Assembly (NCBI RefSeq): GCF_963921235.1
Contig: NC_086108.1
Coordinates: 38,876,001-38,940,000, forward strand
Direction: 5' to 3'
DNA from: Mobula hypostoma
Lineage: Eukaryota
DNA length: 64,000 nucleotides
Both the position numbers and the translations under genes were made by a program. Shown here one piece after another: positions 10,183 through 35,888 of the stretch. How positions within the stretch are numbered: the first letter of the stretch is position 1; each line of letters begins with the position of its first letter. The notes below the pieces were generated by a model, which saw only the letters and a program-made list of their open reading frames with translations, was not told where the DNA came from and ran no database searches.

Positions 10183-11142
10183 GTTCACATTGTGAAATGG
10201 ACATCAACGAGTGTGACTTAAGCCCTTGTCAAAATGGAGGAACATGCCAGAATACCCTAGAGGGTTATATTTGTCACTGTCCAACAGGAAGTGAACAAGA
10301 GATATTTTATGGAGGCCAGAACTGTACAGACATTCTAACTGGATGCGAGAACCATGAATGCCAGAACAAAGCAACATGCATTCCTTATCTGAGGGACTCA
10401 CAACACGGGTACCATTGTCGCTGTGCTAATGGCTATGCTGGCTTGAACTGTCAATTATCAACTACATTTTCCTTTGCAGCCAATGGACATCTTCATTTTA
10501 AAACATCACTTACGGGGAGAAATGAGAACTCGACGAATAAACTTCCTTATCGTGTATTCCTAAGGTGTAGAACTGTGTTGTCCAATGCACTTATTTTTTA
10601 TAGAGGAACCAGAAAAACATTTATGAAATTGGAAGTACTCAATGGCCACTTATATGCATCTCTGCAAATAAGCAATCAACCGGTCGCAGGTCTTGAGATT
10701 TTTAAGAACATAAGTGATGGAGAATGGCACACTGTGGAAGTGACGTTCAGCAGAAACTTTTCTGTCAAACTTTTGGACAACGCCTGTTTGGAAGAATGCA
10801 TGATCCTGAAGTTTGTAGGAATGGAGAGTGAGGAATTTGCCAGAGTATTTGAAAACATATTCTTTGGGGGCATAGAGGACAGCTATGGAGGATTTTCAGC
10901 AGCCCCCCGGCCCCAGACCTGGCCTCATTTTATCGGTTGCCTTCAGGACGTGACAGTGGAATCAAAAGTAATAGACGTGGGCGTCCTTACAGTTGACTCA
11001 GCACTGAATGTGAAGCCAGGGTGCAGCAAGAGCGGTTGGTGTCAGAGCAATCCGTGCCAGGGCAAGGGTCAATGTATCGATTTGTTGATCAATTACACAT
11101 GTGAATGTTTCAGACCATACATTGGTTGGAACTGTTCTGAAG
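10183..11142 (+). CDS. CRB1: CRB1 exon 6 equivalent: EGF x2, laminin-G 1, EGF
   Basis: ttttcaag|GT ... GAAG|gtaaat, 960 bp, phase 1-1. SHCEMDINECDLSPCQNGGTC...SDGEWHTVEV...FIGCLQDV...CFRPYIGWNCSE. Confidence 0.97.
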
Positions 11143-11264
11143 GTAAATGGTACAATAATATTTCAAGGTTTTAAGTGAATACTCCACCTTTTCTTAGATA
11201 TAATGCTCACTATCCGTTTACATGTTCCTAATAATTTAGTTTCCCAATTCAGTAATAAAGGAAC

Positions 11265-13300: not shown

Positions 13301-14971
13301 GCTGTCTCCTTAACTTTCTTTCCCCTTAGAACAGCTAACAAGATTTAGTGTTCTGATTCTGAAGTGCAAAACTATTCCAGATTATTTTTCCTAGAAAAAA
13401 AAATCAAAATTATTATAAAATGATGTTGCCAGCAATAAATAGGGCTGCAGATCATAAGTAGAAATGTTTCAAATTTTGTAATTAATTCAAATAACCTAAG
13501 TCTATTAAAATTAAACATATAATTTTGAATTTGGATATGTTCTTTCCAGACAGTACCTTTACAATTAAAACTTTGAACTCCTCACACTAAACTTCATTGT
13601 ATTATTATTTCATTACGAAGTACTGTATTAAATACTACTCTAATTGATTGCCATTAACAGTGGCCTATATCTTGTTGGACATGATGTGTTGAAATCTCTG
13701 CCCATAGTTCCCACAGGGTCCATACTCATCCAAGCCACCTGAAGAGAAATTACCTTGTTGGCCTTCACGTTCATGTTGGATGGTAAGGTCTGGATGTTGA
13801 TTGCAATACATCCGACATAAGGTAGAGGTCCCAAGCCTGAAAAGGTCCTGTCAGAGGTTATAGCTGGTGTGATTAAAGCCATCACTGAACTTGATAATTT
13901 TTACATGACTTTCAGAATCAAAAATATTTAAAATCTGTAAACATGAAATAATAATTATTGGAAATAATAATTTGAAGTAAACTAATTATGACTTCCCCTT
14001 TGCCTCCTTACCCCCAAACTTAGAACGGCATTGAAATGGCTGTGCAAAAGTAAACCAGCCAACTAGTTTGTAGACTTGCCTACCTTTCAGCATGATACTG
14101 GGAAGTTTGAGCAAGACGGAGTTCCATCATTGGACTCCATGTGGAGTTCAGCAACAGAGTGCAGTGACAGACATCAGGTCACTTATCGGTCAGTAAGTCC
14201 AGAACACTTAGCACGTGCACATACTTTGGAGGCTTGAATCACTCCATTTCAAACATTTTCCCTCTGAAACATTGGTGGCAGCCAGCAAGATTCACCTGTG
14301 TTTTTGAGGTGCATCAATGACAAACCTATAACAATCCAAGTAACCAACAATAAATAGTTACAAGTCATCATTAGAAAAGCTTCAAATTGAATAATTAAAG
14401 GTATAATTTTGAAATTAAAACAGGTTTGTCAACCAGTAGAGTCCCTTTACTGTAAATATGTGTTCTTGCCACTTTAACCACCAGATATTCTCATCTCTAT
14501 GTTAATTTTGACATCTGAATTTAACAAGTTTGATGCAAACCATGTCTAAGTCACAACAGGCTTTATTGGAAAGTGATTCGATCTTCAATTATGGGACAAG
14601 ATGAGCAAGAATGAATCAGCTGCCTTTTGGATACCCTGCCCAATAGTCTTTTACTTTGACCTTAATTTTAAAAAATGACAGAATACAAAACTGCTGAATT
14701 TTGTTTAACTTGTTTTGTATGACCGTGCAAGACCAGCATATATCACAATGCTTAGTTAAACACTGTTAGATTTCACTTAAATTCATCTGGTGCATAAACC
14801 CTTAATATATGCGTTTGTTTTATTTTAATCAATAATGCCAGTCTAATTTCTTTTGGGGTAGAAATGGATGCAACTCTGTACATAAGCAAATTGGTCAGTG
14901 ACTAAAGGCTCGTAATTGATTCAGATGACGTTTAATAGTAGAGCATTCTGCCTTTTGATTTTCTTCAACAG

Positions 14972-15522
14972 AATTAATCCCTGGTGGATTTGGCTATGAA
15001 GATTCCAAAAGCTATGCTTTGTTTGTCATTGATAATGATCCAGGAGAAGAAGTGAACATATCCATGTTTGTTCGCTCTCACCAACCAGATGGTGCGTTAT
15101 TGATCCTGAGGAACAGTAGTGTTCTCTATCTACAGATGAAGTTGGAAGCTGGCCACGTGGTAGTCCGACCTCACTTGTCCAAACCTCTCACAAGTGATCA
15201 CTACATCACGGACAGTAAATTTTATTTAATAACTGTGGAAATAAAACAAAACAAAATGAAACTTGTTCAGATGGGACAAGTGGTAGGTCATGTACAAATT
15301 CCTCCGATTAGAATTCGAACTGGTGATGTAGTTTATATCGGAGGCTTGCCAGATCAGCTGGAACATGCTCAAGACACAAGACACTTTGAAGGATGCATCC
15401 AGGATGTAAAGATCAACAACAAGAGACTTGAATTTTATCCCATTAGTATCCCCAAGGAGACTTACAGTAACAGAATACTTGTCAATATAACAAGAGGCTG
15501 TAATGGCAACAGCACATGTAAG
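14972..15522 (+). CDS. CRB1: CRB1 exon 7 equivalent: laminin-G 2
   Basis: caacag|AA ... TGTAAG|gtacag, 551 bp, phase 1-0. LIPGGFGYEDS...ISMFVRS...GDVVYIGGLPD...FEGCIQDVKIN...GCNGNSTCK. Confidence 0.97.
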
Positions 15523-15682
15523 GTACAGTATACTGATTACATCACACATCTTCGTTCATTGAGTTTTATCTAATTGATTTGAAGACAACCAATTATAACT
15601 AAAATATCAGCACAGCACCATAATCTCAGAGCAAACAAGTATTTGTCACGAAGCCAACAGTAATGGAATCCATCATTTGAAC

Positions 15683-17830: not shown

Positions 17831-18889
17831 TCATTTCCACGGATGCTGCCCGACCTGCTGAGTTCCTCCAGTGTGTTGTGAGCGTTGCTTTGACCCCAGC
17901 ATCTGCAGAGTACTTCGTATTTTTGATCATCATGATTGTTCCTACCTAATTGCAGAATAAAGCAGATTACATATTGAACCAAGCTTTCTTCACTGAAAGG
18001 TAAAACAGTCCATCTTTGGTGATTTTTGATAAAAAGAACATGGGGATTCCCATGGTGCTTGCTAGTGCCTCAAGGCGGCGTCAACATGCAAAATACAAAG
18101 ATAATCAGACTCTTTAATGAAATGCCAGGTCACATTGAACTTGAGAGAGGATTTACCACATTTCCAGATTTTAAATACACATATTAAAACAAAAGAAGCT
18201 GTAGCAGTTTTTATATTTAGATTTGAAAATGGGCATTAGGACTCACCCTCTAGGTCAGAGGTTCCCAAACTGGGGTCCTCGGCTCCCTTGCTTAGTGGTA
18301 TTGGTTATGTTTTGTAACTTCAAAACATTAAAATAATTCAAAGAAAGACATGCGAGTCCAAAATGTGAGTCTAACTTCATCTTTTACTTTAAGCGAGGTA
18401 TGCACATATCAAGTGGTAGCATGATGTATGTAATTCATATATTTATACATATAACCTGTAATTAATTAGTTAAATGAACATGAATGCTTAATCAATCAAT
18501 ATATATACATACAAGATTAGTCAAATATTATTGAAATATTAAATACACAACACTCCTCTCTGCTTAGCTATAAACTCCAACTCAATATAGAAAGCATCTC
18601 AACGATATACACTGTATACTATATAATATAATCACTATATACAGATATCCACAGTATAGCAAATTTTAAGGTGTACCCTTTTGAGGTGTAAAGATTTAAT
18701 TGCTCTGGGGGATTTTTTTTTATTCTTGTGGGATAAAACCTTGCCTGACAAGGGGGATCCCTCTGCTTGACAGGAGAGACTTGTGGCTGTGAACCTATCT
18801 CAGGTTCTGGAGCCTCCTTTGTGGTAGTTGTAAGTGTTGTCACTGAGACTGCAGGAAGTGTTTTAAACAGCTGTGGACACCTTTCTTGT

Positions 18890-19295
18890 CCTTCTCTCAG
18901 CTTTTCTCTTTCTTACTCACATTCTTTCTATCTCTTCTCTCCTTTTCAACTTGTCTTTCTTTCTCTTGCCTTGCTTCTTCTTCCTAGGATGTGTATCTTG
19001 ATCTTGGGAAAGTGCATTTAGTTCACTGGAGTATTCTCTTATTAATCCTTCTATTGATCCCTTTACGATCTGATCTCTTCTCTTGGTTTCTGCATCCACA
19101 ACATCAACTGACAAATCCTCTCTTTTCTTACCTGCATGGGCTCCTTTCTTTTTGGCCTTCTGTTGATCCAGCTGGACTTTGGTCTTTGCATCTACTTTTA
19201 CAAGCAGCTTTTTGTCTCCTCCTGGAAGCTCTTGTAATATCATTAATGAACACATAGTAGATTCTGGTTCTTTATACTCAAAAGCCGAATGCTTG
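18890..19295 (-). pseudogene. RBM25: RBM25 processed fragment, 3' part
   Basis: AFGF/EYKEPEST...KKLLVKVDAKTKVQLD...ETKRRDQIVKGSIEGLIREYSSELNALSQDQDTHPRKKK, recognised as the RBM25 RRM C-terminal half and following region; contains a frameshift and stop. Confidence 0.9.
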
Positions 19296-20692
19296 TGTAA
19301 CTCTTGGTTCGACTAGCAGCTTAATCTAGGGGTTGATAGCCCTTGACCTGGCCGAACTTAAGAAATCTCGTTTGGGTGGATGCTGCGATGTGTACCTTGT
19401 TACAAAACAGTACCACGAAATAACAAACAGTACACAATATGCGATTAAACGATTGAGCTTTATAATTCTTAATTTGACTATATGGTTAGTGAAGAAACAA
19501 AAAAAAGAAAAGGGCCCATTCTCATGAAACAGTCTTATGCGCAATGTTGGAGATCATGGTTCAGTCCGCTGGTTTCCCGTGGACCTCCTCCGAGCATAGC
19601 CGGCCCTTGGACCCTCACTCTAAGTCCACTCTGTCTGGTGGTTTACCAACTCTCTCCATTTGGGTCTTCTGTCCTTATCGCTCCCCAACAAAAGACTGTG
19701 AAATCCCTTTTCCCAGACCCACAAGAAAGAACAACATCCCTCTCATTGGGTAGCTCCACATTTCAAAGCTCCATTATCTCTAGTCGTAACCCAAACATTG
19801 CTGCTACAGAGAAACTATTACCTTTGCAGTGAAACCTCACAGCACATTATACTCTCCATTCCGCCTCCCCCCAACCAAATTTAGTCATGTCTTCATGACG
19901 TTGAGATAGTTCGCCAACTCCTCCTGCAAAACACAAAGTCCAATCCAGGAGTAGAAGGCAGTGACATAGCTCCCCAACACGGTAAGAGTCACAATCTGTT
20001 CCCCTGGTGTTACGTAGGCCAGCCTATCCAGTAGTCTGCTAATTCACTAAGACCTCCGTACCCCCTCACCTAACTCTTCAGGTTCAGTCAGAACTGGGGA
20101 TACTTCCGGTCTACCTGGAAAGGCCTCCCCCCACCCATCACTCGTGCCTACCTGCAATTCAGGTCCCTCAGTCCTGTGGCCAAGCCCCACTTCATCCCTT
20201 GCAGGGTCCCGCTGCAATCCAGGCTGTCCACAGATAGCTCCACCCCACTTCACCTGACAGCGGGAGAAGGGCTGGAAGTCTCTTCCTCAATCAATGGAGA
20301 GTTAACAGGTATCCAGGTCTTCATCCTCTGAATCAGTATCCCCCTCAGGGGTGGGGGCCGGTCTAACCTCGCCTGCTGTGGGCCCTGCAATCGCCCCGCA
20401 TTTCCGACAGGTCCTCTTACTAGGTGTAGTCTCCAAGTCAGGCTCTGGGTCTACCTGCACCTCTTGACCCAGGGGCAGCAGGTGGTTCCGATAGAGAATC
20501 TTGACAGGCCCATTCCCATCCTCTGGTTTCACCTGGAAAACCGGTAGGCTTGGCATTTCACTCTCCACCACATAGGGCTTAGCTGCCCAACAGTCTGCCA
20601 ACTTATTTTTCCCAGGTAGCCCGAATTCCTTATGAGGACCTGGTCTCTTGACAGGAGTTGAGAGAACCTCAGCTTTTGATCATATCTCCTCC

Positions 20693-20765
20693 AATTTCGG
20701 CATGGATTAGAAGGGCCAAGATGGTCTGTTTCTGTGCTGTAATTGTTATATGGTTATATGGTTAT
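20693..20765 (+). mobile_element. Short CR1 3'-end insertion within the Gypsy B integrase
   Basis: ggcatggattagaagggccaagatggtctgtttctgtgctgtaa followed by a (ttatatgg)n tail. Confidence 0.65.
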
Positions 20766-21963
20766 TTCCTTGATTCTGCTTGGCAACCATGATCCTGGCT
20801 AATTCATAAGCCCTTTTCAGCTTTCTTCTCATGTTAGACACATACTTCAGATAAGTCTTTGGTGGTAAGTCGCCCTCGTCAGTCCCAAAACAAAGATCAA
20901 TGGACAACCTCACCTCACGCCCAAACATCAGATAGTATGGCGAGTACCCAGTAGCTTGTAACTGTGGACCAGATGTCCAATATGTTGACTCCACCTGCTC
21001 TTCTTGCTGATCTCCAACGTCTTGAGCACGTCTAGCAATTAAACCTCTCGGGCTGGGGAGCACCCTGCGGATGATAGGGCATGGTCCTCGACTTCTCAAC
21101 TCCAAGCATGCCCGGTCACTCCTGGATGAGTCTGCTCTCGAAATCCCATCCCTAATCACTATATATCCACCTGGGAAGGCCATGATAAATGAAATATTTC
21201 TCCCAAAACATTTTGGCCACCATGGACTCCCTCTGGACTTTGGTAGGAAAAGCGTATGCATATCTCGTGTAGTGGTCCGTGATGACTAAGACAATTGCCG
21301 CATTGCTGGCATCAGGTTCTATTGACAGGAAATCCATACACATCAGGTCCAGGGGCCCTGCACTCTGCAAGTGGGACAAATGAGCTGCCCACGCAGGCAG
21401 TGTCTTCCACCGTGTGCATCGAATGCACGATTTGAAGTATTTTTCGACCTCTGACTTCATTCGGGGCCAGTAAAACCGGTCTCCGAGCAATCCATAGGTC
21501 TTTTCCACCCCAAAATGTCCAGAATCATCATGAAGTGACTTCAACTCCATCCTCCGATACTTCTCCTGCAGAACCAGCTGACAACGCCGAGGTCGGTCCG
21601 GGCGTGACGTGACCCGATATAAGATCTGGTTCCGCAACTCCATCCGAGGCCATTCTCTCAGTAATGGAGGCACCACTGTGTGTTTCGTCTTCCCTGCCTG
21701 AGCTATGTCTCCCTTTTTGACCGCTGACCAAATGATACCGTTGCCTGGGTTGTTTTGCTGAGCAGCTGCCACTTCCCCAGAACTCAATTCCGGCGGCTGA
21801 TTTGTCTTCAGAGCTGTCATGTTACACTAAACGTGGAGAATGGCATCATCGGAAGCTCCCATCTGCCTTCATGGTGATGGCAAACTGACACAGGGCCTCC
21901 ACCCCCGGGGCAGGAACGCTGTCTCACTCCTCGTCCCTGACCAGTCCCTCATGCACCCGTCAG

Positions 21964-22963
21964 TGTCATCAGGTGGTGGCTGGGAACAGACCCAACTGCA
22001 AGACACAGACACAAGTACTAGGGACAGGTCTAGGATACAGGGTGAGGGCTAGGACATGGACACGAAAACTGGGAACCTGGAACAGGACTGGACAAGAGAG
22101 CTAGGAGCCTGGGCTTGGACTCCAAGCCAGAGACTGGACAAGGACCCAGAACCTGGGTCTTGCCTCTGGCTCGGACCCCAGAACTAGGCAAGTACGTGAC
22201 TTGGCTGGCAGGCAGGATGAGGCTGGAGTCTTCAGACTTGAGGCAAGGCTGGAGACCAGAGGCTTGAGGCGAGGCTGGAGACCAGAGGCTTGAGGCTTGG
22301 GGTCTTGAACCTTGACTTGGGGCGAGGCTCGAGGCTTGGGGGTCTTGAAGCTGGGCTGGGGCGAGGCTTGAGACCAGAGGCTTGGGGTCTTGAAGCTCCT
22401 CCTGGGCAGGGTGCAGATCTCCACCCGACGGAGGCAAGGGACGGGAAGGGACAGAAGCAACCATAGGGTAACGGCAAGACAGCCTGGCTTACCCGACAGA
22501 GGCAAGGGACAGGAAGGGAGCTAAGTACAGGGTGGCTCCAAGACAAGACTTCAGGTGAGACGAAGTGAGAGTTACCAGCAAGACAAGGCAAGACTTCAGG
22601 CAATGCAAGGTGAGACAAGAACTTCAGGCGAGGCGAGAGTTACCGGCAAGACAAGGCAAGGCTTCAGGCAATGCAAGGTGAGACAAGAACTTCAGGCTAG
22701 GTGAGAGTTACCGGCAAGACAAGGCAAGGCTTCAGGCGAGGAAACAGAAGGCAGGGACAGGGATACGAGGAGTAAGGACAAGAACAATCCAGCAGCCACA
22801 CCCTGGTCTCTGGAGGTATTTATGCAGCCAGCCCCAACGAGCATCAGCTGCCTCAATTAGTGCTCAACAGGAACAGAAACAGGGTAGACAGGAAAACCTG
22901 GAGCAGGGGTCGATGGACTGGACCATGAACCGGAATGCGGACTTCACGGACTGGACCATGACA
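21964..22963. mobile_element. Solo LTR of a third family, inserted in Gypsy B pol
   Basis: TGTCAT...ATGACA termini, perfect 5-bp TSD GTCAG, 1000 bp, internal tandem repeats (gagaccagaggcttgaggc; caagacaaggcaaggcttcaggc). Confidence 0.88.
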
Positions 22964-24112
22964 GTCAGGACAAAGCATCAGCATCAATGTTCCTGCTTCC
23001 CGGCCGGTACTTCAGGCTGAAATCATAGGCAGACAATGCCACCAACCATCGATGGCCTGTGGCATCCAGTTTCGCTGAGATCAGGATATGTTAGGGTGTT
23101 GTTGTCCATTCTCACCTCAAACTTGGCCCTGAAGAGCTAGGCACTCAGCTTATCCGCCACCACCCATTTCAATGGAAGAAATTCCAACTTGTGCGTGGGA
23201 TAGTTTTTCTCGGAGGGCGACAGACTCCGGTTGACAAACACAACAGGTCTCAACCTGATGCCCTGATCCTGATACAGGACACCCCCCAAGCCCTCTTAGC
23301 TGGCATCCATGTGCAGTACATACGGTAATCGGGGGTCCGCAAAAGCCAGCACTTGGTGCCTGGATCAGCATCTCCTTCAGCGACTGAAAGACCTCTTCAC
23401 ATCTTGCATCCCAACTCGGTCCAAAGGGCTCCAACGGCTAAAATACTCTCCACCCTCCTGTCCTTTTTATCCCCCTCCCTTTCTTCCCCAATGGAGGTTA
23501 ACTGCACAGAAGCTGATTCATCGGGTGACTCATTTTTGTGTAGCCTTTCATGAATCTCTGCTAGTAACCACAGAAGCCGAGGAACAAGTGCAGAGTGCTC
23601 ACAGTCTGGGGTCTTGGCCAAGTGGTCACAACCTCTGTCCTAGCTGGACCTCTAGCTACTCCATCCCGTGAGACCATGTGCCCAACATAGCTAACAGATA
23701 TTTGGCAGAACTGGCACTTGTCCAGGGAAAATTTTAACCTTTCAGCTTTCAGGTGGTCCAGCACCTTCAGCAGCCTCACTTCACGTTCTTCCAAGGTGGA
23801 TCCAAACACTAGGAGGTCATCTGGATACACCAATACCTCAAGCAAGTTCATATCCCCCACCATCTTCTCCGAGACCCGCTGGAAGGTTGCAGGAGCTCCC
23901 GAGATGCCCTGGGGCATCCTTTCAAACTGGAAAAATCCCAGAGGGCATATAAATGCCATTTTCTCTTTGTTGGCCTCACTCATGGGGATCTGGTAATATC
24001 CACTCCTCATCCAGCACACTGAACCACTTCGCACCACTCATACAGGCCAGCTCATCTTCGATCCTCAGGACAGTATACTGGTCAGGGACGGTGCGCCTGT
24101 TCAGAGTCCTAT

Positions 24113-24114
<2 letters not shown>

Positions 24115-24161
<47 letters not shown>
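24115..24161. repeat. (CA)n microsatellite inside the Gypsy B RT
   Basis: About 23 uninterrupted CA units. Confidence 0.98.
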
Positions 24162-24163
<2 letters not shown>

Positions 24164-27010
24164 CTCTACCTTCCCATTCTTCTTTCAGGCCACTACCATT
24201 GGGAACACATAGGGGCTTCGGGATTCGGTGATGATCCCAGCTTCCTTCAACTTACACAAGTTTTGCCAAGCGTCTTCCACCTCTACAGGGACCAGTCTCT
24301 GTGACCGCTCTCTAAATGGGGTGTCCTCGGTCACCCGGATAGTGTGACAAGTGCTCATGGAACAACCCACATCAAACTCTTCAGTGGAAAAGACACCTTC
24401 CAGCTTCAACATCTTCTCTACCAGCCTCCTCTTCCAAACCACAGGAACCAGGGAGTCCCCGAAGTTGAATGACTCAGCGGTCAACTTTCCCCCTTTTTCC
24501 AATAGTTTCTCCCCAGTTTGCCTCACAGGGACACTAGACATTACCGTCACTGGGAACAGATGCACCAGGGGCATCCCCCGCTTGAAGGTGACCTCCCTCT
24601 TCGTAGTGTTCCTGATAATCACTGCCATCCTGTGTTCCTGTACAACCGAGGGCAATTCTGCAATTCTGGCCTCACCAGTACCCCAGCAGGAAATCCCGAC
24701 TCCCCCTCGTGGTCGTCCAGAGCATGCACTAAGAGGGCTTTGCCCTCAGGCACTCTGGAAATTTGGGGGTCCCCATCACTCTCGCTATTTCCCCGGGGCG
24801 TACCACCATCGGCTTTGTCTGGGTGAACCACACAGTCCTTCGTCTAAATTCAGTATCTGGCCTGATGCAGCCACACACTTCCTCAAAAGCCGCTCAAAAC
24901 ACTGGGTGCACGGACAATGTTCCCAGAAAGCTCTCGCCGGCCTTCTCCCTGCAGGCCCCCATAAGCCTCCTCACAAGAGGGGTGTTGGTTCCACCAGAAT
25001 TGAAACACTGCCCATCTCAACAGGGTCCGGACAAACCAGCACCAACTGTATCAAGAACCTCAGACACTCCCACACCGGCCTCCGAGAACTCCAGTTTCAC
25101 TGACAAATAACCGTCCGATCGATAATCACCAGCACTGAGACCCCAAATCTCCAGTGCATTGAATGGTGTCAATGGTAAATGCTTCAGATACCGGTTGTAA
25201 AACGAACAGTACAACAACATGACCTGCGACCCAGTGTTGAGTATGGCTTTAGCATAAGTACTCTCTATCCGTAGCGACACACTGGAGCATGGTCCCACTA
25301 AACCTTCAGGAATTGGGCCTTTCGCTTTCAGGGATTCCTTTGTACATTGCTGGGAACATGTTCCCCCAGTGACACCAGGCCGTTCCCTCATTGGGTCTCC
25401 TCTAAGTTTTCCCAACAACTCTCCCTGCTTAGGTACCCGGGGGCTCACTCTCCTTCTAGTGTGACACCTGCCAACAGCCCCTCCACATTGTTCGTCCCCT
25501 TGAGGAATCTGTTCCCCCATCAGCTCCATCAAATGGGGGTGTCACACCTGCTGATAACAGCTGACATATCTCCGTTCTCAGCTCTGGACAATCTCCTCTA
25601 CCACTCCCCGGGGTAGGCTATCTGTGGTTACTTCAGGGGACTGCTATGGAGGACTGTACCCTGCTTTTGGAGCTCCTAGCTACGTGATCCATTCTTAACT
25701 GATCCACTTTAGCTGCCTGAATGACCCCTCTGCGCTACAAGCAATTTAGCTGCCTCTCTAGCTGAAAAATGTAAGCAGAAAGCATCTCCCCTTCTCCTGA
25801 CGCATGTTCTGAAACCCCACCATAAGCTCCAGTGGGCTTCCTATTGGGCAAAAAGCATTGTCCAGTGCTTGCATGTAATTGACAGCTGTTGCTACGGATA
25901 CCGCAACCTGACAGCTCTCACAACGTCAGCAGCCCACCCACTCAAACTCTCAACCAATCGCTGTCGCTTTACGCCATTAGAGCATTGCCACTCATCTAAC
26001 AACTGAGAGGTCCGCTCCGCCCAAGTCTCATGCTCCTCCTCCCCTCTAGAGGTGGGTGTTATTCCAGAGAATAGGCAGAGCCTGCCATAGCTGGGACTTC
26101 GAACCTGGGCATTTTCCCATTTATTCGCCAGAGAGGTAAGAGCGAATACTAACTCAGAATTCTCACTCTTCACTGGGGGACGTGGACTAATTAGATATTC
26201 TAAATCCGACCACTCCTTCCCCTCACTCCTCAGAAAATATAAAACCCTGTCATTGAAATCTCCACCCCCTCCCAGCTACATCTACGTCAAAGCTGGTCTG
26301 CATTAAAATGAGAGCTGCGCCCGCCACTTCATTAAACTTCCACCCCGCAATTGCAACTTTAATAGTACTTAACAGGCAAATTAACAATTCATTCCACTGG
26401 TTCAATGCTCAGGGTGATCACACAGCATCCAATGAAATCAATCCCGGACAAGCCCCCTCAATTGTAACTCTTGGTTCGGCTAGCGGCTTAATCTAGGGGA
26501 AGACAGCCCTTGGCCCGGCCAAACTTAAGAAATCTTGTTTGGGTGGATGCTGCGATGTGTACCCTGTTACAAATCAGTACCCCGAAATAACAAACAGTAC
26601 ACGATATTCGATTAAATGATTGAATTTATATAATTCTTAACTTGACTAGTAAGGAAATAAAAAAAAAGAAAAGGGCCCATTCTCATGAAACAGTTTTATG
26701 CGCAATGTTGGAGCTCACGGTTCAGCCCGTTGGTTTCCCCTCGACCTCCTCCAAGCGTAGCTGACCCTCGGACCCTCGCTCCAAGTCCTCTCCGTCCGGT
26801 GGTCTACCAACGCTCTCTCTTTGCGTCTCCTCTCCTCATCTCTCCCCAGCAAAAGACTGAAATCCCTTCTCCCAGACCCACAAGAAACAGCAACATCCCT
26901 CTTATTGGATAGCCCTACATTCCAAAGCCCTGTTATCCCTAGACATAACCCAAACATTGCTGCTACAGGGAAACCATTACCTTAGCAGTGAAACCTCACA
27001 GCACATTACA

Positions 27011-27290
27011 CTTGCAAATTTCTTCAAACTCCTTGAACTCTCTTCCAGCTTAAAACCAAGCCACATTTCGCAAGTAACTGCCTGGTGAATACATCAGTTT
27101 TCTCAGATATGTTGCCTGCCAAAATTATTGCAGTCAGGCCACTGCTTTCATCACTTCCACATTTCTACTGAGAAGTATGGTCCTTCCTTGATCCAATATG
27201 CTTTCCAACCAGAGGCACCACGGTTGGCACCAACTCTTGCTTACCCTCTGTTGGGCAATGGTTCATGGTGTACAGCATGGAGACAGTTTT
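27011..27290 (-). pseudogene. RBM25: RBM25 processed fragment, 5' part
   Basis: LVPTVVPLVGKHIGSRKDH..*...GNISEKTDVFTRQLLAKCGLVLSWKRVQGV*RNLQ joins the 3' part exactly once the Gypsy element and one CTTG TSD copy are removed. The 5' junction is uncertain between about 27235 and 27290. Confidence 0.88.
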
Positions 27291-27859
27291 GCATCATCCA
27301 ACACCTTTCCTAATTCATTTTTAGTTGACTTCACTGTAGGGAGTGTGACATGTAACTGGTGGATGGATCTCCAGTTAAGTTGTAGCTGTCTCAGCCAATC
27401 ATGTCCCCACAATGCTTGTCCTCCCATTTTTACCACATACAGGCTCAGTGTGGCATGTTGGTTGTCGTATTTCACTGACACGAATGCTGTTCCCACAGGA
27501 GTTATCTTTTCTCCAGTATAACTTCTTTGTTCAAAGGTATCTTGTGGAATGACTGTAACAGCTGACCAAGTATCCAATTCAATTTTAATTAAATTGCTGT
27601 TCACTTCTAGTGTAAGCCATATTGCTTGTCTATTTTTAAATTTCACATTATAAATCTCAAGGCTAGTCGGTCCTATGTCACTCTCATCATTATCAGATGT
27701 TTCATCAACAGCATGCAGATTAGTGCTCCTTTTGAAACTGTAACTCGACATTTTAGCTTTTTCTCTTCCCTGAGCAGTCTATTTATTTTTGTCTGCCCGG
27801 CACGCTCTTTGTATGTGTCCTATTTTGTTTAATTTCTTGCTAGTTTCATCGTTCGATCT

Positions 27860-30800
27860 CTGATGATCTATTCTGGTCCCAACATATTGATGCAGCTATA
27901 AAGAGTTTGAAGAGATTTGTCATCTGAAAAACTCTAAAATTCCTACAGATGTATCGTGAAGAGGATTCTGACAGGCAGCATCACTCTCTGTTATGGTGGG
28001 GGGGTGACTGCACAGGACCGAATTAAGCTACAGAAAACTCTAAAATTACTCAGCTCCATCTTGAGCACTAGCCTCCATAGTATGGAAGACATCGTCAAGG
28101 AGTGGTTCCTCAGAAAGTCGACGACCATCATTAAGGACCCCCATCACCCAGGACATGCCCTCTTCTCATTGTTACCATCCGGAAGGAGGTACAGAAGCCT
28201 GAAGGCACACACTCAGCGATTCAGGAACAGCTTCTTCCCCTCTGCCATCTGATTCCTGAATGGACATTGAACCTATGAACACCACCTCACTTTTTAAAAT
28301 ATATATTATTTCTGTTTTTGCACTATTTCTAATCTATTTAATATACAGAGTGTTAAAAATACACTTGGACTAAGATGTTAACTGTCCTGTGCTATCACCA
28401 GTGGGATCATCAGTTGATTTGCCACCTGTCTTCAGGAGTTTCGGCCCGCTTATGATCAAGACTCCCTCGAGGTGGTGGGCCAGCAGTGCTAAAGCACCAC
28501 CTCCCACTGGTGAGCTTAAAAACTTGGCATCTGCCTCTGTCAGTCACTTCCATCCAACAGAAAGTCTGCTCTTTAGGTGTCTATGCAACTACTGAAGGGT
28601 TTGCAAAAGATATACACACTGTCTGACTATCTGCCCCTCTGGACATACTTGGTCCATACCCATGCTGGTCCTTTCTCTGCTGCCTCAGCTACAGCCCTGC
28701 TGGTTGACTTGATCTCTCTTCTAGTGAAGCCAAGGTCATGCAGCCACTTCTGGAGAGTGAATACAATAAACCCACGGCAGCCTGCTTCGAATGGATAACA
28801 TGAGACCTTCCACCCTCTGTCTCTGCACTCTGATCTTAATTCTGCATACTTGGTTAACTTGCGCTCACGGGCTTCATCGATGTTGTCTTCCCAGGAGACT
28901 GTGAGTTCACCAATAACCACTTCTCTACTGGTGTCAGACCATACGATTATATCTGGACGCAATGTGGTGAAAGCTATTTGCTTCGGGAAACTGCCTTTCC
29001 CATCCAGGTCGGCCTTGACACACCAATCATTGGCTAAACAAAGTATGCTTGATCGTGATCCTGTGCTGTACACCCTTGACTTGGAGCCTTCTTTCACAAA
29101 TGATATGCAATGTTCTGTGCAACATGGGGCATGAGATAAGTTGTGCTGCAGTACTCTCTGCTCAGCCGCTTCTGTTACAACTTTGAGAACATTGTTATGT
29201 CTCCAAGTGTACATGCCGCTGGAAAGATTGACTCTGCATGCACTCAAGATATGTTGAAGTGTTCCCTTCTCGCCACAAGCAGCACACCTGTCTGTCTTAT
29301 CTTCATACCAGGTGCTGAGGTTGGTAGGTGTTGGGAGCAGGTCGTACACTGCTCTGCATAGAAAAGAGATGCGGAGTGGTTCCATCTGCCACAGAACATT
29401 CCAAGATAGATGTCATTGTTCAACACTTTCCCACCAGGTCCAAGCCCCTTGTTTGGCCAGGCCAGCTGTTTTAGTTAACCTCTTCTCCTCTTCTACCTCT
29501 CGTATTTCTTGTGTTACAAGCTCACGGCGCTCCTTACCTGTAGAAGATGACCACCACTTGTGGGTTGTCCACCCAAGTCCCTGGCGGCCTCACTGGATAG
29601 CCCCAACTGTCTCCTTGTGGTTCAATCTAGACTCTGCCTCATCAACTGCTACATGGGCTGACCACTTCCTGCCTGATCTCACATCCGGCTGGGTGTTCTT
29701 GATGACAGGGTCTTTTGAGTCTTGAAGCATCAAGAATGATTTTACCTTGGCTACCTTGACCTCCTCAACAAGGGATTGCACTGGGATGGTAAGCTTTGTC
29801 TGGCTACTGTGGATTGCAACATTGGTGAGGCTGCTTGGTACTCCAAGCCACTTCTTCACATACTTGTTGATCTTCCATTCCATTGCCTTAACATGGGACA
29901 TTGCCACTTTATAGACAGTTCGTGGCCACATTATCCATGGCATCAGTCCGTATTGCAAGCACCACAACTTCAACTTGCCAGGCAAGCCACACTTGTCAAC
30001 AGACATCAGACCTCTGCTGATCTGTTCTCCTGTCTCTTGAACCCTCTTGGTGTCTCTCAGCTCCTCTGTGTACCATCGCCCGAGGCTCTTAACTGGTTGG
30101 TCCTGAATAGATGGAATCTCCTCTCCACAAAGGATGAAATGAAAGTCAACCAGCTTTCCTCTCCTAAGAACAAGGCTCCTTGACTTCTTGGTCTTGAACT
30201 TCATTCTTCCCCAATCCATTAGCTCCTCGAGTCTAGATACTATAGTACATTTTCCACTGCCTCCGTGCTGCGACCCAAAAGGGTGAGATCGTCCATGAAC
30301 ACTTGTATTGGTGGTAACTCCCCTCCGCCATCAAGTGCGACACCTGGTCCCACTGATTCTGCAGCCCTCACAATGACCTACGTGGCTAACACAAAAAGGA
30401 TGGGTGAAATCGCACATCCCATTGGGATTCCAACATAAAAGCTCTGCCACCTAGTTGTAAACTGCTGAGTGGAAAACCTCATCCAGAAATCATTGTAGTA
30501 ATACATAACAAAGTTCCTCACCTTAGCAGGAATCCATAGGAATTCCATCGCAAACTCAATCAGGACATGGGGAACAGAACCATACGCATTTGCCAGATCA
30601 AGCCAAACTACAGCCAGATTTCTTCTCAACCTTTTTGACTCCTGGATGGTATGCCATATCATACTAGAATGTTCAAGGCATCCTGGGAAGCCTGGTATTC
30701 CTGCCTTCTGCACAGATGTATTTACTAATCCATTCTCTATCACAAATAAAGATATTCTTTCTGCCAGAATGCCAAACATAATCTTCCCCTCTACATTCAG

Positions 30801-32108
30801 GATTAAAATTGGTCGGAACTGATTCAATGTAGAAGAATTCTCTTCCTTCGAGATGTATACTCCTTCAGCCTCACTCCATGACAAAGGAACAACACCTTGT
30901 CTCCACACCACTTTTAGCAATTTCCACAAGTATTTCCTCAGCTCTTCACACTTCTTGAACACCTTATGCGGCACTCCATTTGGTCCTGGCACTGAGCCTG
31001 ACCTTGCCTTTCTGATTAACCGTTCGACTTCTGTCAATTTGGGTTCTGACAGATCGAACTTCACTCCTGGCTTGGTAGGCTTCACAGGCCCTGAAATATC
31101 AAGCAAAGGAGCCTCCCGCTGTTCGTTAGAGTAAGTGCTTGCCAGGTGATCCTCAAGTTCTTGTTGAGAGATGTTAATCTGCCCGCTCTTACTTTGTTCA
31201 AACTGTTTCTCTGTGAACTCATGAGGGTTCTTAAAGAACGACTTTCTTGCCTTCTCTCTCTTCTTTCTCTTTATGTTGTGACTCTGCATGATGGAGTGAT
31301 GCTAACTTTATTTGAAAATGCTCTCGGAGATCAGCAAGCCCTGGCTTGTCACCCTCACTTGCGACCTTCCACCTCTGTCTCAATGATCTAAGCTGTCTCC
31401 TCAACCTAACAATCTCCTTCTGGCGCCTGCTTGGTTGCTGTGTAGGCTTTGCTTTCTTCAATTCAACCAAACCAAACCTGTACTTTCCAACATCGTAAGT
31501 CATATCGCCCATCACTTCCAACTTTCTCTTTGATGTTCTCCTGAGAGTGTTCTCCAACATCATACTGATATCCTCATAAAAAACATGCCAAGCCTTCTCA
31601 TCTGCCATTGTTGGCCACTTGACCTTCCTCTTCTTCTCTACCTCCTCACCACCACCATCATGCGAAGGATCTACCTGGGTGCTGTGGTCTGAAACCTGAC
31701 CTGGGTTATCTTTCTTCTGACCTGGAATATGATGACTCTCTCCAGAGCGAATCGCTGTGGCTTGTGAATCAGTGGTTGAAAAGACCACATCATCTGTGCT
31801 TGGTGAAGTAACCTCATCTTCATCCACTGGGATGGAATAGCACCTCAACTTTGCTTGGTGGACTCGTACACCTTTAATGCTGGAAAACGCTCTCCCACAC
31901 CAACACACTGGACACTCAGAGCCTCTTATTCTAGCTCTTGGTTGTAGTCGTTCCCTGTAATTAACTGTATCCATATATACATGTACTGTAATTGAACCAT
32001 TTATTTATTTCATTTCTTCCTTTATTATCAGGTATTGCATTTTCCTGCTGCCGCTAAATTAACAAATTTCATGACACATGCCAGTGATAATAAACCTGAT
32101 TCCGATTC
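27860..32108 (+). mobile_element. L2/Rex1-type LINE 3' fragment (27860-28347 plus 31975-32108) split by a HERO-like element
   Basis: IIKDPHHPGHALFSLLPSGRRYRSLKAHTQRFRNSFFPSAI*. The 3' UTR resumes after 31975 and ends taaacctgattccgattc. Confidence 0.8.
28348..31974 (-). mobile_element. R2-group (HERO-like) non-LTR retrotransposon: ZnF, RT, CCHC, restriction-like endonuclease; frameshifted
   Basis: CWCGRAF..VHQAKLRC; VVWLDLANAYGSVPH; GIPMGCAISPILF; FMDDLT; CAAC..HILSAC..WRHN; RPDIIVW..IGELTV..RKLTKY. Probable TSD atataca at 28341-28347 and 31975-31981. Confidence 0.9.
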
Positions 32109-32725
32109 AATCTCCATTGGTCTGGTGTATATGAGCCCCTGCCACAATGGCAACACAATTTGCTCGGCCCAGCCAGTTTCTGTTTAGACATTGCAATTTT
32201 GTTCACGGTCACTTTCATTCCTAACTGCCACTCAATTGTGCCTCTGTCTGTGGTTTTCATTAATACAGCTATTTCAACTGCTCCTTTAAATGTAAGTTGT
32301 GTTTCAGTTAGGAGATGTTTTTGAATGCTTTCTTGTCAAATTCCACAAACTAAACAATATCTCAGTACATCATTAAGCCCATTGCTGAACTGACAATGGC
32401 TCAATTTCTTCAATTCAGCCACGTATGGTGAAATGGACTCCCCCTCTTTTTGATTCCATTTATGAAACCTAAATTTATGAAACCTAAATTCTGCATCACT
32501 TTGACAATATCAGCAAAGCTCATTTTGGATGGTTTGGTTGGAGAAGTTAAACTTTGGAGCATGCTGTATGCCTTTAAATCTAGTGCAATCAGCAAAGTTG
32601 GCTTTTGGCTATTTCATTTGATTAAAAATACTGTTTCATTAGCTCAGTATACATGAGCCAGTTATTTCTTGTGGAATCAAATGCACTAATCTCCCTGATG
32701 TAGCCAGCCATTTCTGCTTTTTTTT

Positions 32726-33672
32726 AATCAAATCAAATCAAATCAAGTTTAATTATCATTCATGGATACAGCTGAACAAGACAGCGCTGCTCTGGGTCCC
32801 AGGTGCATAACATACATTCAAAATTGTGAGAGAGAAAAAAAAACACACACACACATTTTATGCAAGAAAACACATGTATAATCCAAGTCACCGAGTGACA
32901 TGCAAACTAATGGTACAGCTCCTGGCACTGGAAGGCAGCACTGACAGGAGAGGCCAGCTCCTAACTGAGCACAGACTCCAAGCTATACCGCCTCCAGTGT
33001 CATCTCATCAGGTCTGCAGCAACTGGCAAGCCCGTTTGAGACCTTGTCCTTGCTACAACCAAGGCCATGCTGCTGCCTCATTGCCTGTATCACCACCAAG
33101 CAAGGGAAACAGGCCTGTGGCATCTCAGATTATTAATGTCTAATCGCAAGAGAAATGTCCAAGACAATCACTCACGGTTACACTGCACGATACTTTCGCG
33201 TACCAGCTCTGATATCTTTAAGTAACAGGCAGCATCCAGGTCAGCTCCTCCGAACCATCTTTGGCCTGCCTGCTGGCTTTTCCTTCTCCCGGCCCACCCA
33301 GCAGCTTCTTCTTCTCCCGGGCAACTTGCTGGCTTCTCCTTCTCTCATCTGACCATTGGCTTCTATTTCACCCAGCCGAGTGCTGGCTTCTCCTTCTCCG
33401 AATTGTCCACCAGCTTCTCCTTCTCCCAGCTGAGTGCCAGCTTCTCCTTCTCTGACTAATCCGCTGGCTCCTTCAACACCCTGGCCGGCAGCTCAGAACA
33501 ACGAACAGATCACTGATGTGGTAGGTCAGCTGTATCCATTGTTTTTGGAGTACAATATAGTCTTAGGACCATAAAAAACATATTTTTAAAAGAGAAGTGC
33601 ACCTTTGGTTGGCCTTCAAGAGGCTGCAGCTTTCGATTGTGCTGCCATCTTACCAGACAGGGAACTGGCAAG
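32726..33672 (-). mobile_element. Non-autonomous LINE-derived element with (TTGAT)n tail and internal tandem repeats
   Basis: (atcaa)4 run at 32727-32746, AAGATGGCAGC 5' motif near 33650, cttctccttctccc tandem units at 33265-33470; interrupts the leader of LTR element A. Confidence 0.6.
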
Positions 33673-34024
33673 ATTTATGATTATTATCACCCAGTACTTA
33701 CTCTTTATGAACCCGTGAATTCTTCTGTTTTCTGACTTAAAAAAAAACTTGATTGTGCCTTCCCTTCCGAAAAATATTTGCTGTGCTACTTTGTTTTTTA
33801 CTCAACTGTCTCTGCATATGCTCACTGTGCTTTTCTCAGTTTGAACATCTCTCTGCGCTTCTACAGGTCAGTGGTCGTCTTGGGTTTGCTTTAAAAATAC
33901 CTCGTCACCAATGATATGTTTTGTAACTTTGAAACATTAAACTAATTCAGAGGACGACACGGGAGTCCAAAATGTGAGCCTACCCTTGTCTTTTATTTTA
34001 AGTGAGGCGCGTGCATATCTTGTA

Positions 34025-35658
34025 CAGATTTCCCCCGCCATCCGAAGGTAGAGCGTTCCTATGAAACAGTTCGTAAGCCAGAATTTTGTAAAGCGAAGAA
34101 GCAATTACCATTTATTTATATGGGAAAATTTTGTGAGCATTCGCAGACCCAAAAATAACGTACCAAGTCATGTGAAATAACACTAAAAACCTAAAATAAC
34201 AGTAACATATAGTAAAAGCAGGAATGATATGATAAATACACAGCCTATATAAAGTAGAAATACTTTTCCACGATCATTACTGAACTGTTTGCCGTACCGA
34301 AAATCTCACGCAAGTGCCGTCGGCAGAAAATCTGACGTAAGCGCCGTTGGCAAAAACATGGTGCAAGCACTCTCCAGTAACCTTTAAGCTATGAAGCTGC
34401 CAAATCATACCAAATAACACGTAAAAATACACAGCCAATATAAAGTAGAAATAATGTATGTACAGTGTAGTATCACTTACGGGAATTGCGGCAGCGCCGA
34501 GCACACTGATGATGTGTTAGGCTGAGTTGTCGCAGGTTGGAGTGGTGCAGTGGCCCCACCCTCCAGGCTGTCGACCAATACATTGCCGCGAAGCACACAG
34601 GGGTCCAGCGGTGGCCGGGAGGCACACAGCACATCTTTAAGAAAAAAGCCGAAATAAACAAGCTAATTAATTAGGTGCTGCCCGGCATGTAATTGTCGGC
34701 CCAGATCAGTGCCAATTGCCGATTGCGTCGTCTCTGATCTGGGCCGACAATTACGTGTTAGGCAGCACCTAATTAATTAGCATGTTTATTTCAGCTTTTC
34801 TCTTAAAGGTGTGCTGTGTGCCTCCCAGCTACCGCGCATTCTCTGCGAATCAGTATCTGTCCGTGGCCTGGGTGTTGGGGTGGTGGGACACTGGGGTGTT
34901 ATCTCGTCGTCTGCTTCCATTAGGGCAGGCAGCTCATCTTCTTCTATGTTTGTCTGCCTCAATGTCGAAGGTCGAGGTTCGTTGTCTGTTGTGGCTGATG
35001 TGGAAGTCTTGCTTGACTGCTGAACCTTGCACATTTTTCTATCATACAGTTCTTTGTAAGCACTCAAACCATCCTGCAAATATCCCCTAAACCAACGTAC
35101 TCTTTCAAAGTTAAAGTTGTACTTTATCATTGAGCGAAAATCTCACGCAGTTGCTTCACGTTCAGTTCCTGGACGACTTCACTTTCGCTACTGAATTCGG
35201 TTTCGATTGTTATCCTTTCCTCTTCCAATTGCATCAGCCCTTCATCTATGAGTTCTTGGTCATGGGATGCCAAAACCTCTTCAACATCATCTTCGTCAGC
35301 TTCCACAAGTCAAACTCACTTAGTCCTTACTTCGTTCACCACGATCGAAATGCTTAATTATGTCTAGCTTTACGCTAAATGCAACACCCTTATGAGCTCT
35401 TTCAGGCTTTTCTGATAACCTTAGAACTCATCTTGCGAACCACTGCTCACAGGCACGTGTTCAAGCAATGCTGGCGAGAATACCGTTCCGAATCCGGGCG
35501 AGAGCGGCTGCTCGGGATGCACTCTGCCTTTTATCGCGCGCTGCTTTTTTTTCGTAACAGTGAAAACACCTTCTGAAAGTGAAAACAGGGTACTAATGTA
35601 GGTCTTTCATAACAGTGAGGTTTCGTAAAGCTAACGTTCGAAAGGCGGGGGACACCTG
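34025..35658 (-). mobile_element. Internally deleted Tigger/pogo DNA transposon
   Basis: TA TSD; TIRs CAGATTTCCCCCGCCATCCGAA and TTCGAAAGGCGGGGGACACCTG. HTH start (VKLDIIKHFDRGERSKD) is fused directly to the C-terminus (LASHDQELIDEGLMQLE...YKELYDRK); DDE core missing. Confidence 0.88.
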
Positions 35659-35888
35659 TAGTATGATGACGTATGCAATTCACGTATTTATACATATAAC
35701 CTGTAATGAATTATTTAAATGAAAAGGAAATGAATGTTTATTCTCTCTCTTTCACACACAAGATTACTCAAATATTATGAAAATATCAAATGCACAACAG
35801 TATTGGTCCATGGCATAAAAAAGTTAGGAATCCCTGCTCTAGCTAGTCCTCATTGTAAGGAGCATCATCAACAAAGTGAGGAATTATA

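What the first reader, a model, noticed from the sequence alone, without database searches (positions are those of the whole stretch)
18890..27290. Host RBM25 mRNA captured inside an LTR retrotransposon, replacing pol
Seen: between the protease (ending ELGKVLDDA, about 27290) and the integrase C-terminal tail (about 18885) of LTR element A there is no RT, RNase H or IN core. About 0.65 kb of contiguous, same-orientation sequence instead translates as RBM25 (VGKHIGSRKDH, GNISEK, RQLLAKCGLVLSWKRVQG, AFGF, EYKEPEST, KKLLVKVDAKTK, LIREYSSELNA, HPRKKK). No introns, poly(A) tail or TSD are visible, and the 3' junction falls in purine-rich GAAAG-type sequence. Known: template switching onto co-packaged mRNA yields LTR-flanked retrocopies, as in retroviral oncogene transduction. 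Inference: an LTR-mediated retroposition of a splicing-factor RRM, giving a gag-PR-RRM chimaeric non-autonomous element that may have multiplied.
Basis: partly seen in the sequence, partly recalled or inferred. Interest (0 to 1): 0.88.

Follow-up and report, generated by a model that had tools for sequence, protein, structure and literature searches.

The report
Retrotransposon family carrying captured RBM25 mRNA
This is one old, decayed copy of a jumping-gene family that swapped its own copying enzymes for a spliced piece of the host splicing-factor gene RBM25 and then spread to well over a thousand places in the genome, a known kind of accident at an unusually large scale.

Summary
Confirmed and extended. 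Element A (35799-18303, minus strand, TSD AATAC) is a Gypsy element whose RT-RNaseH-integrase is replaced by spliced RBM25 mRNA (last 10 nt of exon 3 to about 29 nt into exon 11). The host gene has eight introns over that span; none was found in 92 other copies. Pol-bearing relatives show microhomology with the mRNA at both switch points (7 nt; 9-10 nt). The 5' join is in frame (protease-RRM); there is no poly(A). All legible copies share both junctions, so one capture multiplied: 1,203 genome-wide matches to one RBM25 24-mer, about 1,800-3,400 copies after calibration. The tree is star-like, LTR divergence equals that of the pol-bearing family (0.21), and copies decay neutrally, so the cargo looks like a passenger; selection on the founder cannot be excluded. 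The 7.7 kb in the middle is a younger Gypsy element inserted exactly at the exon 6/7 join. The mechanism is described (Tan 2016); precedents I read reach 1-9 copies. The scan noted this family four times before on other DNA of this genome.

The parts
35800..35804 (-). 5-bp target-site duplication AATAC, 5' side of element A
33912..35799 (-). 5' LTR of element A (about 250 bp, starts TGTTGTG), split by a DNA-transposon-like insertion at 35658-34025
   Evidence: both parts align to the 3' LTR
34025..35658 (.). later insertion in the 5' LTR with TA on both sides and CAG...CTG ends (pogo/Tigger-like is a recalled label, not tested)
33900..33910 (-). primer-binding-site-like TGGTGACGAGG directly after the 5' LTR; similar in other copies
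   Evidence: the matching tRNA was not identified
32103..32727 (-). gag of element A (decayed); other copies join it directly to 27848
   Evidence: zf-CCHC in relatives
27853..32102 (-). later insertion(s) in gag, mainly a non-LTR retrotransposon (RVT_1, zf-RVT)
27294..27852 (-). end of gag plus aspartyl protease of element A, ending ELGKVLDD
   Evidence: Pfam RVP in copy L033 (the window's own frame scored no family); similarity to pol-bearing relatives stops at 27291
27285..27293 (-). 5' switch point: last 10 nt of host exon 3, with 7-nt microhomology TGCCACA shared by parent element and mRNA (one base lost in this copy)
27011..27284 (-). RBM25 exons 4, 5, 6, spliced (start of the RRM)
19296..27010 (-). 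nested element B: younger Gypsy element with its own PNMA-like gag, RT and integrase; LTRs 27010-26463 and 19853-19296 differ at 67 of 549 sites; TSD CAAG; sits at the exon 6/7 join
18882..19291 (-). RBM25 exons 7, 8 and remnants of exons 10 and 11 (deletions of mRNA positions about 772-892 and 961-1205); ends in the 3' switch microhomology (G)GAGAAGAAA
18553..18881 (-). integrase C-terminal tail and 3' untranslated part, ending in a purine tract AAGCAGAGAGGAG before the LTR
18303..18552 (-). 3' LTR of element A
18298..18302 (-). 5-bp target-site duplication AATAC, 3' side of element A

Best explanation
A Gypsy LTR retrotransposon co-packaged a spliced RBM25 mRNA. During reverse transcription the enzyme left the element's RNA in the integrase tail, copied about 1.07 kb of mRNA (exon 11 back to exon 3) and returned to the element at the protease/RT boundary, each jump guided by a short microhomology. 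The product kept LTRs, primer site, gag, protease, tail and purine tract but lost RT, RNase H and the integrase core. It then multiplied in trans with the enzymes of its pol-bearing relatives during the same burst, to roughly 1,200-3,400 copies, losing more of the repetitive Arg/Glu-rich part in shared, stepwise deletions. The RBM25 piece was a passenger; all copies seen are dead. Shown: spliced origin, replacement of pol, microhomologies, shared junctions, copy number floor, equal age with the parent family, neutral decay. Inferred: co-packaging, switching during reverse transcription, mobilisation in trans, passenger status of the cargo.
For: Host gene on contig C1 has AG/GT-bounded exons with introns of 1.7-6.1 kb. 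In 92 other copies the joins E3|E4, E4|E5, E5|E6, E6|E7, E7|E8 are contiguous in 76, 80, 86, 84, 79; E8|E9, E9|E10, E10|E11 in 6, 6, 26; 0 of 20 pol-bearing loci pass the same test; 0 of 92 hold any of 16 intron ends or host sequence beyond either switch. Pol-bearing relatives: 320 pattern hits, 30 of 30 fetched have no RBM25 match and most read on into RT; Pfam order RT, RNase H, integrase. Microhomology TGCCACA and (G)GAGAAGAAA. 29 of 29 loci picked by RBM25 sequence alone have element sequence on at least one side, 26 on both. 1,203 matches to an exon-7 24-mer with up to 2 mismatches, reversed control 0; detection rate 13 of 37 and 39 of 58. LTR-LTR distance 0.211 (16 of 40 chimeras scorable) against 0.209 (9 of 20 pol-bearing). 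Star-like tree, median tip 0.10, host tip 0.042. Diversity at non-degenerate over fourfold sites 0.95 (CI 0.80-1.15) in the RRM; private N/S 3.0. Shared deletions, e.g. 27 of 73 copies share a first deletion at about 752-870. Pol-bearing copies also have deletion derivatives landing on the same 3' site (6 of 16; 5 of 25), so short derivatives multiply without cargo.
Against: The star-like tree leaves almost no internal branch on which selection for the cargo could show, so 'passenger' is weakly tested. The join is in frame, and the RRM core is kept while the repetitive part is lost (expected from slippage alone, but also from selection). Host-versus-family differences are 18 synonymous to 2 replacement at non-CpG sites against 12.7 synonymous per copy (P 0.09): a slight, non-significant excess that could hide a selected founder branch. 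TSDs were not established for copies other than the window's. Whether all 1,203 matches lie in LTR elements was checked only on samples.
Confidence: 0.85

Rival explanations
1. Same capture, but the in-frame Gag-protease-RRM protein helped the element (for example by binding or packaging its own RNA), and that drove the burst, as with transduced genes in retroviruses.
For: In-frame 5' join; RRM scored by Pfam in natural frames L045 and L054; family founder nearly identical in protein to the host (19 synonymous, 1 replacement difference shared by at least 70% of copies); RRM core retained while the rest is deleted; in the protease of chimeras 8 of 13 common variants are at third positions.
Against: No excess of fourfold-site diversity in the RRM; synonymous excess on the host/founder branch not significant; cargo-free deletion derivatives of the same family also multiplied; chimeras are a minority of the family (5 of 30 tail-anchored loci).
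Confidence: 0.1
2. A LINE-made RBM25 processed pseudogene or free cDNA was copied into the element at the DNA level (break repair or ectopic recombination), and the hybrid then multiplied.
For: Microhomology-guided joins also arise in DNA repair; LINE-type elements are abundant here.
Against: No poly(A), no fragment TSD, both ends fall inside the coding sequence; 2.5-3.5 kb of pol is replaced, not interrupted; a search with the RBM25 C-terminal 147 aa found 3 matches among 6 candidates, all exons of the gene itself, so no 3'-anchored pseudogene was seen; the 3' site is also the landing site of cargo-free deletions, as expected of an RT switch site.
Confidence: 0.04
3. The many copies arose by segmental duplication of one chimeric locus, not by retrotransposition.
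For: Two small sets are near-identical: four copies within 0.5 Mb on C76 (1.3-4.9% apart) and L044/L049 (1.1%).
Against: Matches are spread over many contigs and both strands equally (602/601); similarity to the window stops at the LTR end near 18304 in most copies; mean pairwise distance 0.18 with a star-like tree.
Confidence: 0.01

Closest known systems
LTR-mediated retrocopies of animals / 'pseudo-LTR retrotransposons' (Tan et al. 2016, PMC5131818; abstract and sections 5, 6, 9 read)
   Same: Partial spliced mRNA replaces part of the internal ORF; microsimilarity at both switches (their median 6 bp); no poly(A) or fragment TSD; in-frame fusion; secondary copies share switch points; one preferred return site in the element (their BLASTOPIA case).
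   Different: Scale: the sections read give 18 insertion sites for nine fly retrocopies and single loci in vertebrates; here at least 1,200 copies from one capture. Age: here all copies are about 10% diverged from the founder.
Maize Bs1 (via PMC5131818 discussion and PMC13317346 passages)
   Same: LTR element with captured exonic host sequence, further amplified with identical switch points.
   Different: Bs1 has three donors, 1-5 copies and a translated chimeric product; here one donor, more than a thousand copies, no intact copy seen.
Crocodilian ERVs CrocERV29 (KIT ligand) and CrocERV31 (nectin3) (PMC4299795; 12 of 14 passages read)
   Same: Old vertebrate LTR elements carrying a host mRNA in several copies; in CrocERV31 at the cost of an element gene.
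   Different: Those are retroviruses with nine and six copies and cargo under purifying selection; this is a Gypsy element that lost pol, with neutrally decaying cargo.
Acutely transforming retroviruses with transduced oncogenes (recalled, not looked up)
   Same: Host mRNA fused in frame behind gag, replacing pol; helper-dependent.
   Different: No env, no infection, no sign of selection for the cargo.

Membership tests
LTR-mediated retrocopy (Tan et al. 2016) | Intronless host mRNA segment spanning exon joins | tested here: met
   All 8 joins seen contiguous in 6 to 86 of 92 copies; 0 of 16 intron ends found
LTR-mediated retrocopy (Tan et al. 2016) | Flanked by discontinuous parts of one LTR element; internal ORF replaced, not interrupted | tested here: met
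   Parent has 2.5-3.5 kb of RT-RH-IN between the same two points in copies with the native integrase end
LTR-mediated retrocopy (Tan et al. 2016) | Microsimilarity at the switch points | tested here: met
   7 nt at 5'; 9-10 nt at 3' depending on the parent variant
LTR-mediated retrocopy (Tan et al. 2016) | No poly(A) tail or TSD around the fragment | tested here: met
   No A-run of 8 or more in the window's 3' piece; junction sequences
LTR-mediated retrocopy (Tan et al. 2016) | Co-transcription from the LTR | tested here: inconclusive
   No run on record as RNA; a few diverged intronless contigs at depth 2-5 in runs guessed to be RNA or of unknown kind cannot show LTR-driven transcription
Non-autonomous LTR retrotransposon family | Two LTRs, primer site, purine tract and TSD, lacking RT/IN | tested here: met
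   Window copy; LTR pairs scorable in 16 of 40 junction-selected copies
Non-autonomous LTR retrotransposon family | Many dispersed copies sharing structure, with a contemporaneous pol-bearing partner | tested here: met
   1,203 and 2,403 motif matches; equal LTR divergence
Non-autonomous LTR retrotransposon family | Mobilisation in trans shown directly | not testable with these tools
   Family is old and decayed; inferred from shared LTRs and age
Ty3/Gypsy superfamily (parent element) | Domain order PR-RT-RNase H-integrase | tested here: met
   Pfam on natural open pieces from several decayed copies, ordered by distance from the protease end; 14 of 17 pieces scored a family, several below the curated cut-off
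Ty3/Gypsy superfamily (parent element) | RT phylogeny places it in a named clade (Mag-like is my recalled guess) | not tested
   No reference RT set was available; BEL/Pao, which shares the domain order, was not excluded by a tree
Functional retrogene | Intact frame under purifying selection | tested here: not met
   Longest natural frame across the junction 228 aa among 98 loci; N/S 3.0; no fusion protein among the best 150 library hits

The most novel reading that the evidence does not exclude
The captured RRM was recruited, not carried: the in-frame Gag-protease-RRM polyprotein gave a pol-less element an extra RNA-binding domain that favoured its own packaging and drove one of the largest single-gene transduction bursts in a vertebrate, a retrotransposon counterpart of oncogene capture. 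In its wider form, repeated pol-for-mRNA swaps by Gypsy elements, not LINE retroposition, would be the main source of high-copy 'processed pseudogenes' in cartilaginous fishes.
Probability: 0.12. Interest if true: 0.85.

Novelty: new variant of a known kind. Interest (0 to 1): 0.55.

Why it matters
It is an unusually complete natural record of LTR-mediated gene capture in a vertebrate: donor gene, isoform, both switch points, helper family and later deletion series can all be read. The copy number (at least 1,200) is two to three orders above the precedents I read. It warns that retrocopy counts in cartilaginous fishes can be dominated by single captures amplified as transposons and not by LINE activity or expression level; a recent survey (10.64898/2026.06.26.734816, passages) lists MIPOL1, SUDS3, SDF2L1, SLU7 and ZNF276 as their top parental genes and discusses non-LTR content as the driver, and earlier notes of this scan (unchecked by me) report SUDS3 and 4E-T captures by Gypsy elements in this genome. 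It also makes a testable case of host conflict: more than a thousand transposon copies of an essential splicing factor's coding sequence could feed silencing RNAs against the gene.

Tried and rejected
PDB sequence search with the RBM25 piece: 0 matches. PWI family search of the genome: 3 matches, none RBM25 by tblastn; the gene was found with a C-terminal protein query. Protein searches with the protease (141 candidates) and with protease plus junction (51 candidates): no hit at E 0.001. Profile search of 1.84 billion representatives: 540 hits, none of the 150 listed covers the protease side; 10 looked up gave no cartilaginous-fish name, so taxonomic range beyond close relatives is unknown. 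No RNA holder listed. Exon variants of related organisms were cut from the read table, so the synonymous differences could not be polarised. Linkage search for subfamily-diagnostic alleles: none at P below 1e-4 with 4-nt spacing; only 2 pairs below 1e-4 in a looser run; the apparent common changes at codons 194-195 come from a deletion join and were dropped. Only 3 protease sites separate chimeras from pol-bearing copies, none fixed. TSDs of other copies not resolved. PDB search did not name the surrounding EGF/laminin-G gene. Look-up of earlier findings by the protease DNA: nothing. Dropped before counts: L133 and L147 (same loci as L038, L042), L049 and L166-L168 (near-identical duplicates), 4 copies covering under 300 nt. 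Rejected: LINE insertion into an intact element; retained introns; assembly artefact (junction shared by 63 exact 30-mer matches). Literature: seven searches listed no paper on an RBM25-carrying retrotransposon; the library lacks most subscription journals and Repbase/Dfam were not available; supplementary tables 8-11 of the bioRxiv retrocopy survey could not be seen and may list RBM25.
Full report
Observation. The window lies at G000:C50:38876001-38940000 of a 3.48-Gb genome; that it is a cartilaginous fish is my recalled impression and that of earlier notes, not tested. The frame 18920-19312 finds RBM25 proteins (best E 2e-32), and tblastn with paddlefish RBM25 hits both window pieces.

Anatomy of the locus. 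Element A runs from 35799 to 18303 on the minus strand, inside an intron of a plus-strand EGF/laminin-G gene (Pfam; crumbs-like is a recalled guess). It has about 250-bp LTRs, a primer-site-like motif, a purine tract and the same 5 bp, AATAC, on both sides. Four later insertions inflate it from about 3 kb to 17.5 kb: one in the 5' LTR, about 0.95 kb in the leader, a non-LTR element in gag, and Gypsy element B (27010-19296) with its own RT and integrase. B's LTRs differ at 67 of 549 sites (0.12) against about 0.21 for the A family, as nesting requires. Its TSD CAAG is the last four bases of RBM25 exon 6, so exons 6 and 7 abutted before B arrived.

The donor. The RBM25 gene is on contig C1; the exons concerned are AG/GT-bounded with introns of 1.7-6.1 kb (exon numbers are mine). 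The captured span starts 10 nt before the end of exon 3 and ends about 29 nt into exon 11, about 1.07 kb. It includes a 48-nt exon (E4) that is absent from the paddlefish, gar and frog proteins printed; runs guessed to be RNA show the E4|E5 join at depth 54 and 53 against 96 and 85 for E5|E6, which fits an alternative exon. Among 92 other copies the eight joins are contiguous in 76, 80, 86, 84, 79, 6, 6 and 26; 0 of 20 pol-bearing loci pass; no copy holds intron ends or host sequence beyond either switch.

The parent and the switch points. A pattern for the protease end followed by non-RBM25 letters gave 320 hits; none of 30 fetched matches RBM25, most read on into RT, and their similarity to the window stops at 27291 in 27 of the 29 that match there. 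Pfam finds RT, RNase H and integrase in that order in natural pieces. At the 5' switch parent and mRNA share TGCCACA, in the same codon frame (parent D-A-T-A-V, host P-A-T-T-V), so protease and RRM were fused in frame; 18 natural open frames from 17 loci cross this junction, the longest 228 aa, two with a Pfam RRM. At the 3' switch they share GAGAAGAAA, or GGAGAAGAAA in a parent variant; read by hand, the host frame continues out of frame with the integrase tail. The same 3' site is where cargo-free deletions of the parent land (6 of 16; 5 of 25).

Scale and age. One exon-7 24-mer with up to 2 mismatches matches 1,203 places (one is the gene; reversed control 0). It is detectable in 13 of 37 junction-selected and 39 of 58 BLAST-selected copies, giving about 1,800-3,400 copies; the exact junction 30-mer (63 hits; 4 of 58) gives about 900 by the more biased route, so 1,200 is the floor I trust. 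A comparable RT-start motif matches 2,403 places (present in 18 of 29 other loci, chosen as the best motif, so optimistic). In a tail-anchored sample 5 of 30 loci carry RBM25 and 25 carry pol remnants. All 29 loci picked by RBM25 sequence alone have element flanks. LTR pairs differ by 0.211 in chimeras and 0.209 in pol-bearing copies; the tree of 88 copies plus host is star-like with tips near 0.10 and only 6 of 86 inner branches well supported (bootstrap had not settled). No rate was available, so no date is given. Contigs of a run from a related organism (about 5% intron divergence, kind of library not on record) show intronless joins in dozens of contigs and summed depth 11,650 on exon 5 against 0-14 in unique intron bins; two further related organisms show such joins and diverged intronless contigs. 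The tool warns that this depth is no copy number; it does indicate the family predates these splits.

Later history. None of 73 scorable copies keeps the whole 484-nt Arg/Glu-rich stretch as such (median 38 nt left); deletion breakpoints recur at unrelated loci, 27 sharing about 752-870 and about a dozen about 1002-1140, so deleted forms kept transposing. Diversity at non-degenerate and fourfold sites is equal in the RRM (ratio 0.95, CI 0.80-1.15) and private changes are 3.0 replacement per synonymous: neutral decay. Host and family majority differ by 18 synonymous and 2 replacement changes at non-CpG sites against 12.7 synonymous per copy (P 0.09), so capture and burst were close in time, with only a weak hint of a selected founder branch. 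Against my reading: this test has little power on a star tree, and third positions are enriched among common protease variants in chimeras (8 of 13).

Mechanism. Shown: spliced donor, replacement of pol, two microhomologies, one origin, large dispersed family of the same age as its pol-bearing relatives. Inferred from established retroelement biology: co-packaging, two template switches, mobilisation in trans. I put 0.85 on this with the cargo as passenger, 0.10 on a useful RRM, 0.04 on a DNA-level copy of an older pseudogene (no 3'-anchored pseudogene was seen).

Comparison. It meets four of five features of LTR-mediated retrocopies in Tan et al. 2016 (PMC5131818; abstract, sections 5, 6, 9); co-transcription is untested. 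Precedents read: Bs1 with 1-5 copies, crocodilian ERVs with six and nine, fly retrocopies with a few sites. Seven searches listed no paper on this family; the VGP paper and its retrocopy companion have no 'RBM25' or 'RBM' in the main text; the companion's supplements were closed and the VGP paper's were not searched. Earlier notes of this scan describe the same family at four other loci and similar SUDS3 and 4E-T captures; my reading was fixed before I saw them, and I did not check the other genes.

Verdict. Real, well documented, mechanism known, scale exceptional: a new variant of a known kind, interest 0.55.

Noticed in passing
window 27010-19296: Element B inserted exactly at the exon 6/7 join of the retrocopy, mimicking the lost intron; with eight joins in about 3 kb this is roughly a 1% coincidence, and 84 of 92 other copies have the join intact.
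   Followed up: partly
L111, L114, L121, L122, L126, L127, L175, L179, L180, L182, L191: Pol-bearing copies with a deletion from the integrase zinc-finger region to the same AGAAGAAAGG site used by the RBM25 3' switch: a cargo-free deletion subfamily or a switching hotspot; sequence downstream of it may be needed in cis.
   Followed up: partly
G000:C1:99832633-99832586 (L071:7586-7633): 48-nt RBM25 exon not present in the bony-vertebrate proteins I printed; apparently alternatively spliced, and included in the captured isoform.
   Followed up: partly
L165-L168 (C76, 4.5-5.0 Mb) and L044/L049 (C91): Near-identical chimeric copies (1.1-4.9% apart), probably recent segmental duplications.
   Followed up: no
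L069 99810351-99810685 versus copies L003, L008, L009, L020, L030: After the common deletions some copies read exon 10 in a shifted frame (K-K-L-K-R-R-E-E-I-E-R), which is why part of the window's 131-aa frame does not look like RBM25.
   Followed up: no
window 21960-22960: A GC-rich stretch with 68-nt and shorter tandem repeats interrupts element B between RNase H and integrase; similar sequence interrupts copy L194.
   Followed up: no
window 27853-32102: Non-LTR retrotransposon with RT, zf-RVT and a C-terminal endonuclease-like region (R2/NeSL-like is recalled) inserted in gag of element A, with long open pieces (307, 246, 261 aa).
   Followed up: no
window 10101-11174, 14959-15573, 42183-43136 (+): Large EGF/laminin-G exons of the surrounding gene (crumbs-like by recalled exon layout); the nested element stack lies antisense in one of its introns.
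   Followed up: partly
G000:C1:99876647-99876896 and 99906397-99906639: Two LTRs of this same family lie 36 and 66 kb upstream of RBM25 exon 2.
   Followed up: no
window 33327-33488: Three 54-nt tandem repeats in a roughly 0.95-kb stretch (33673-32728) that most other copies lack between leader and gag.
   Followed up: no
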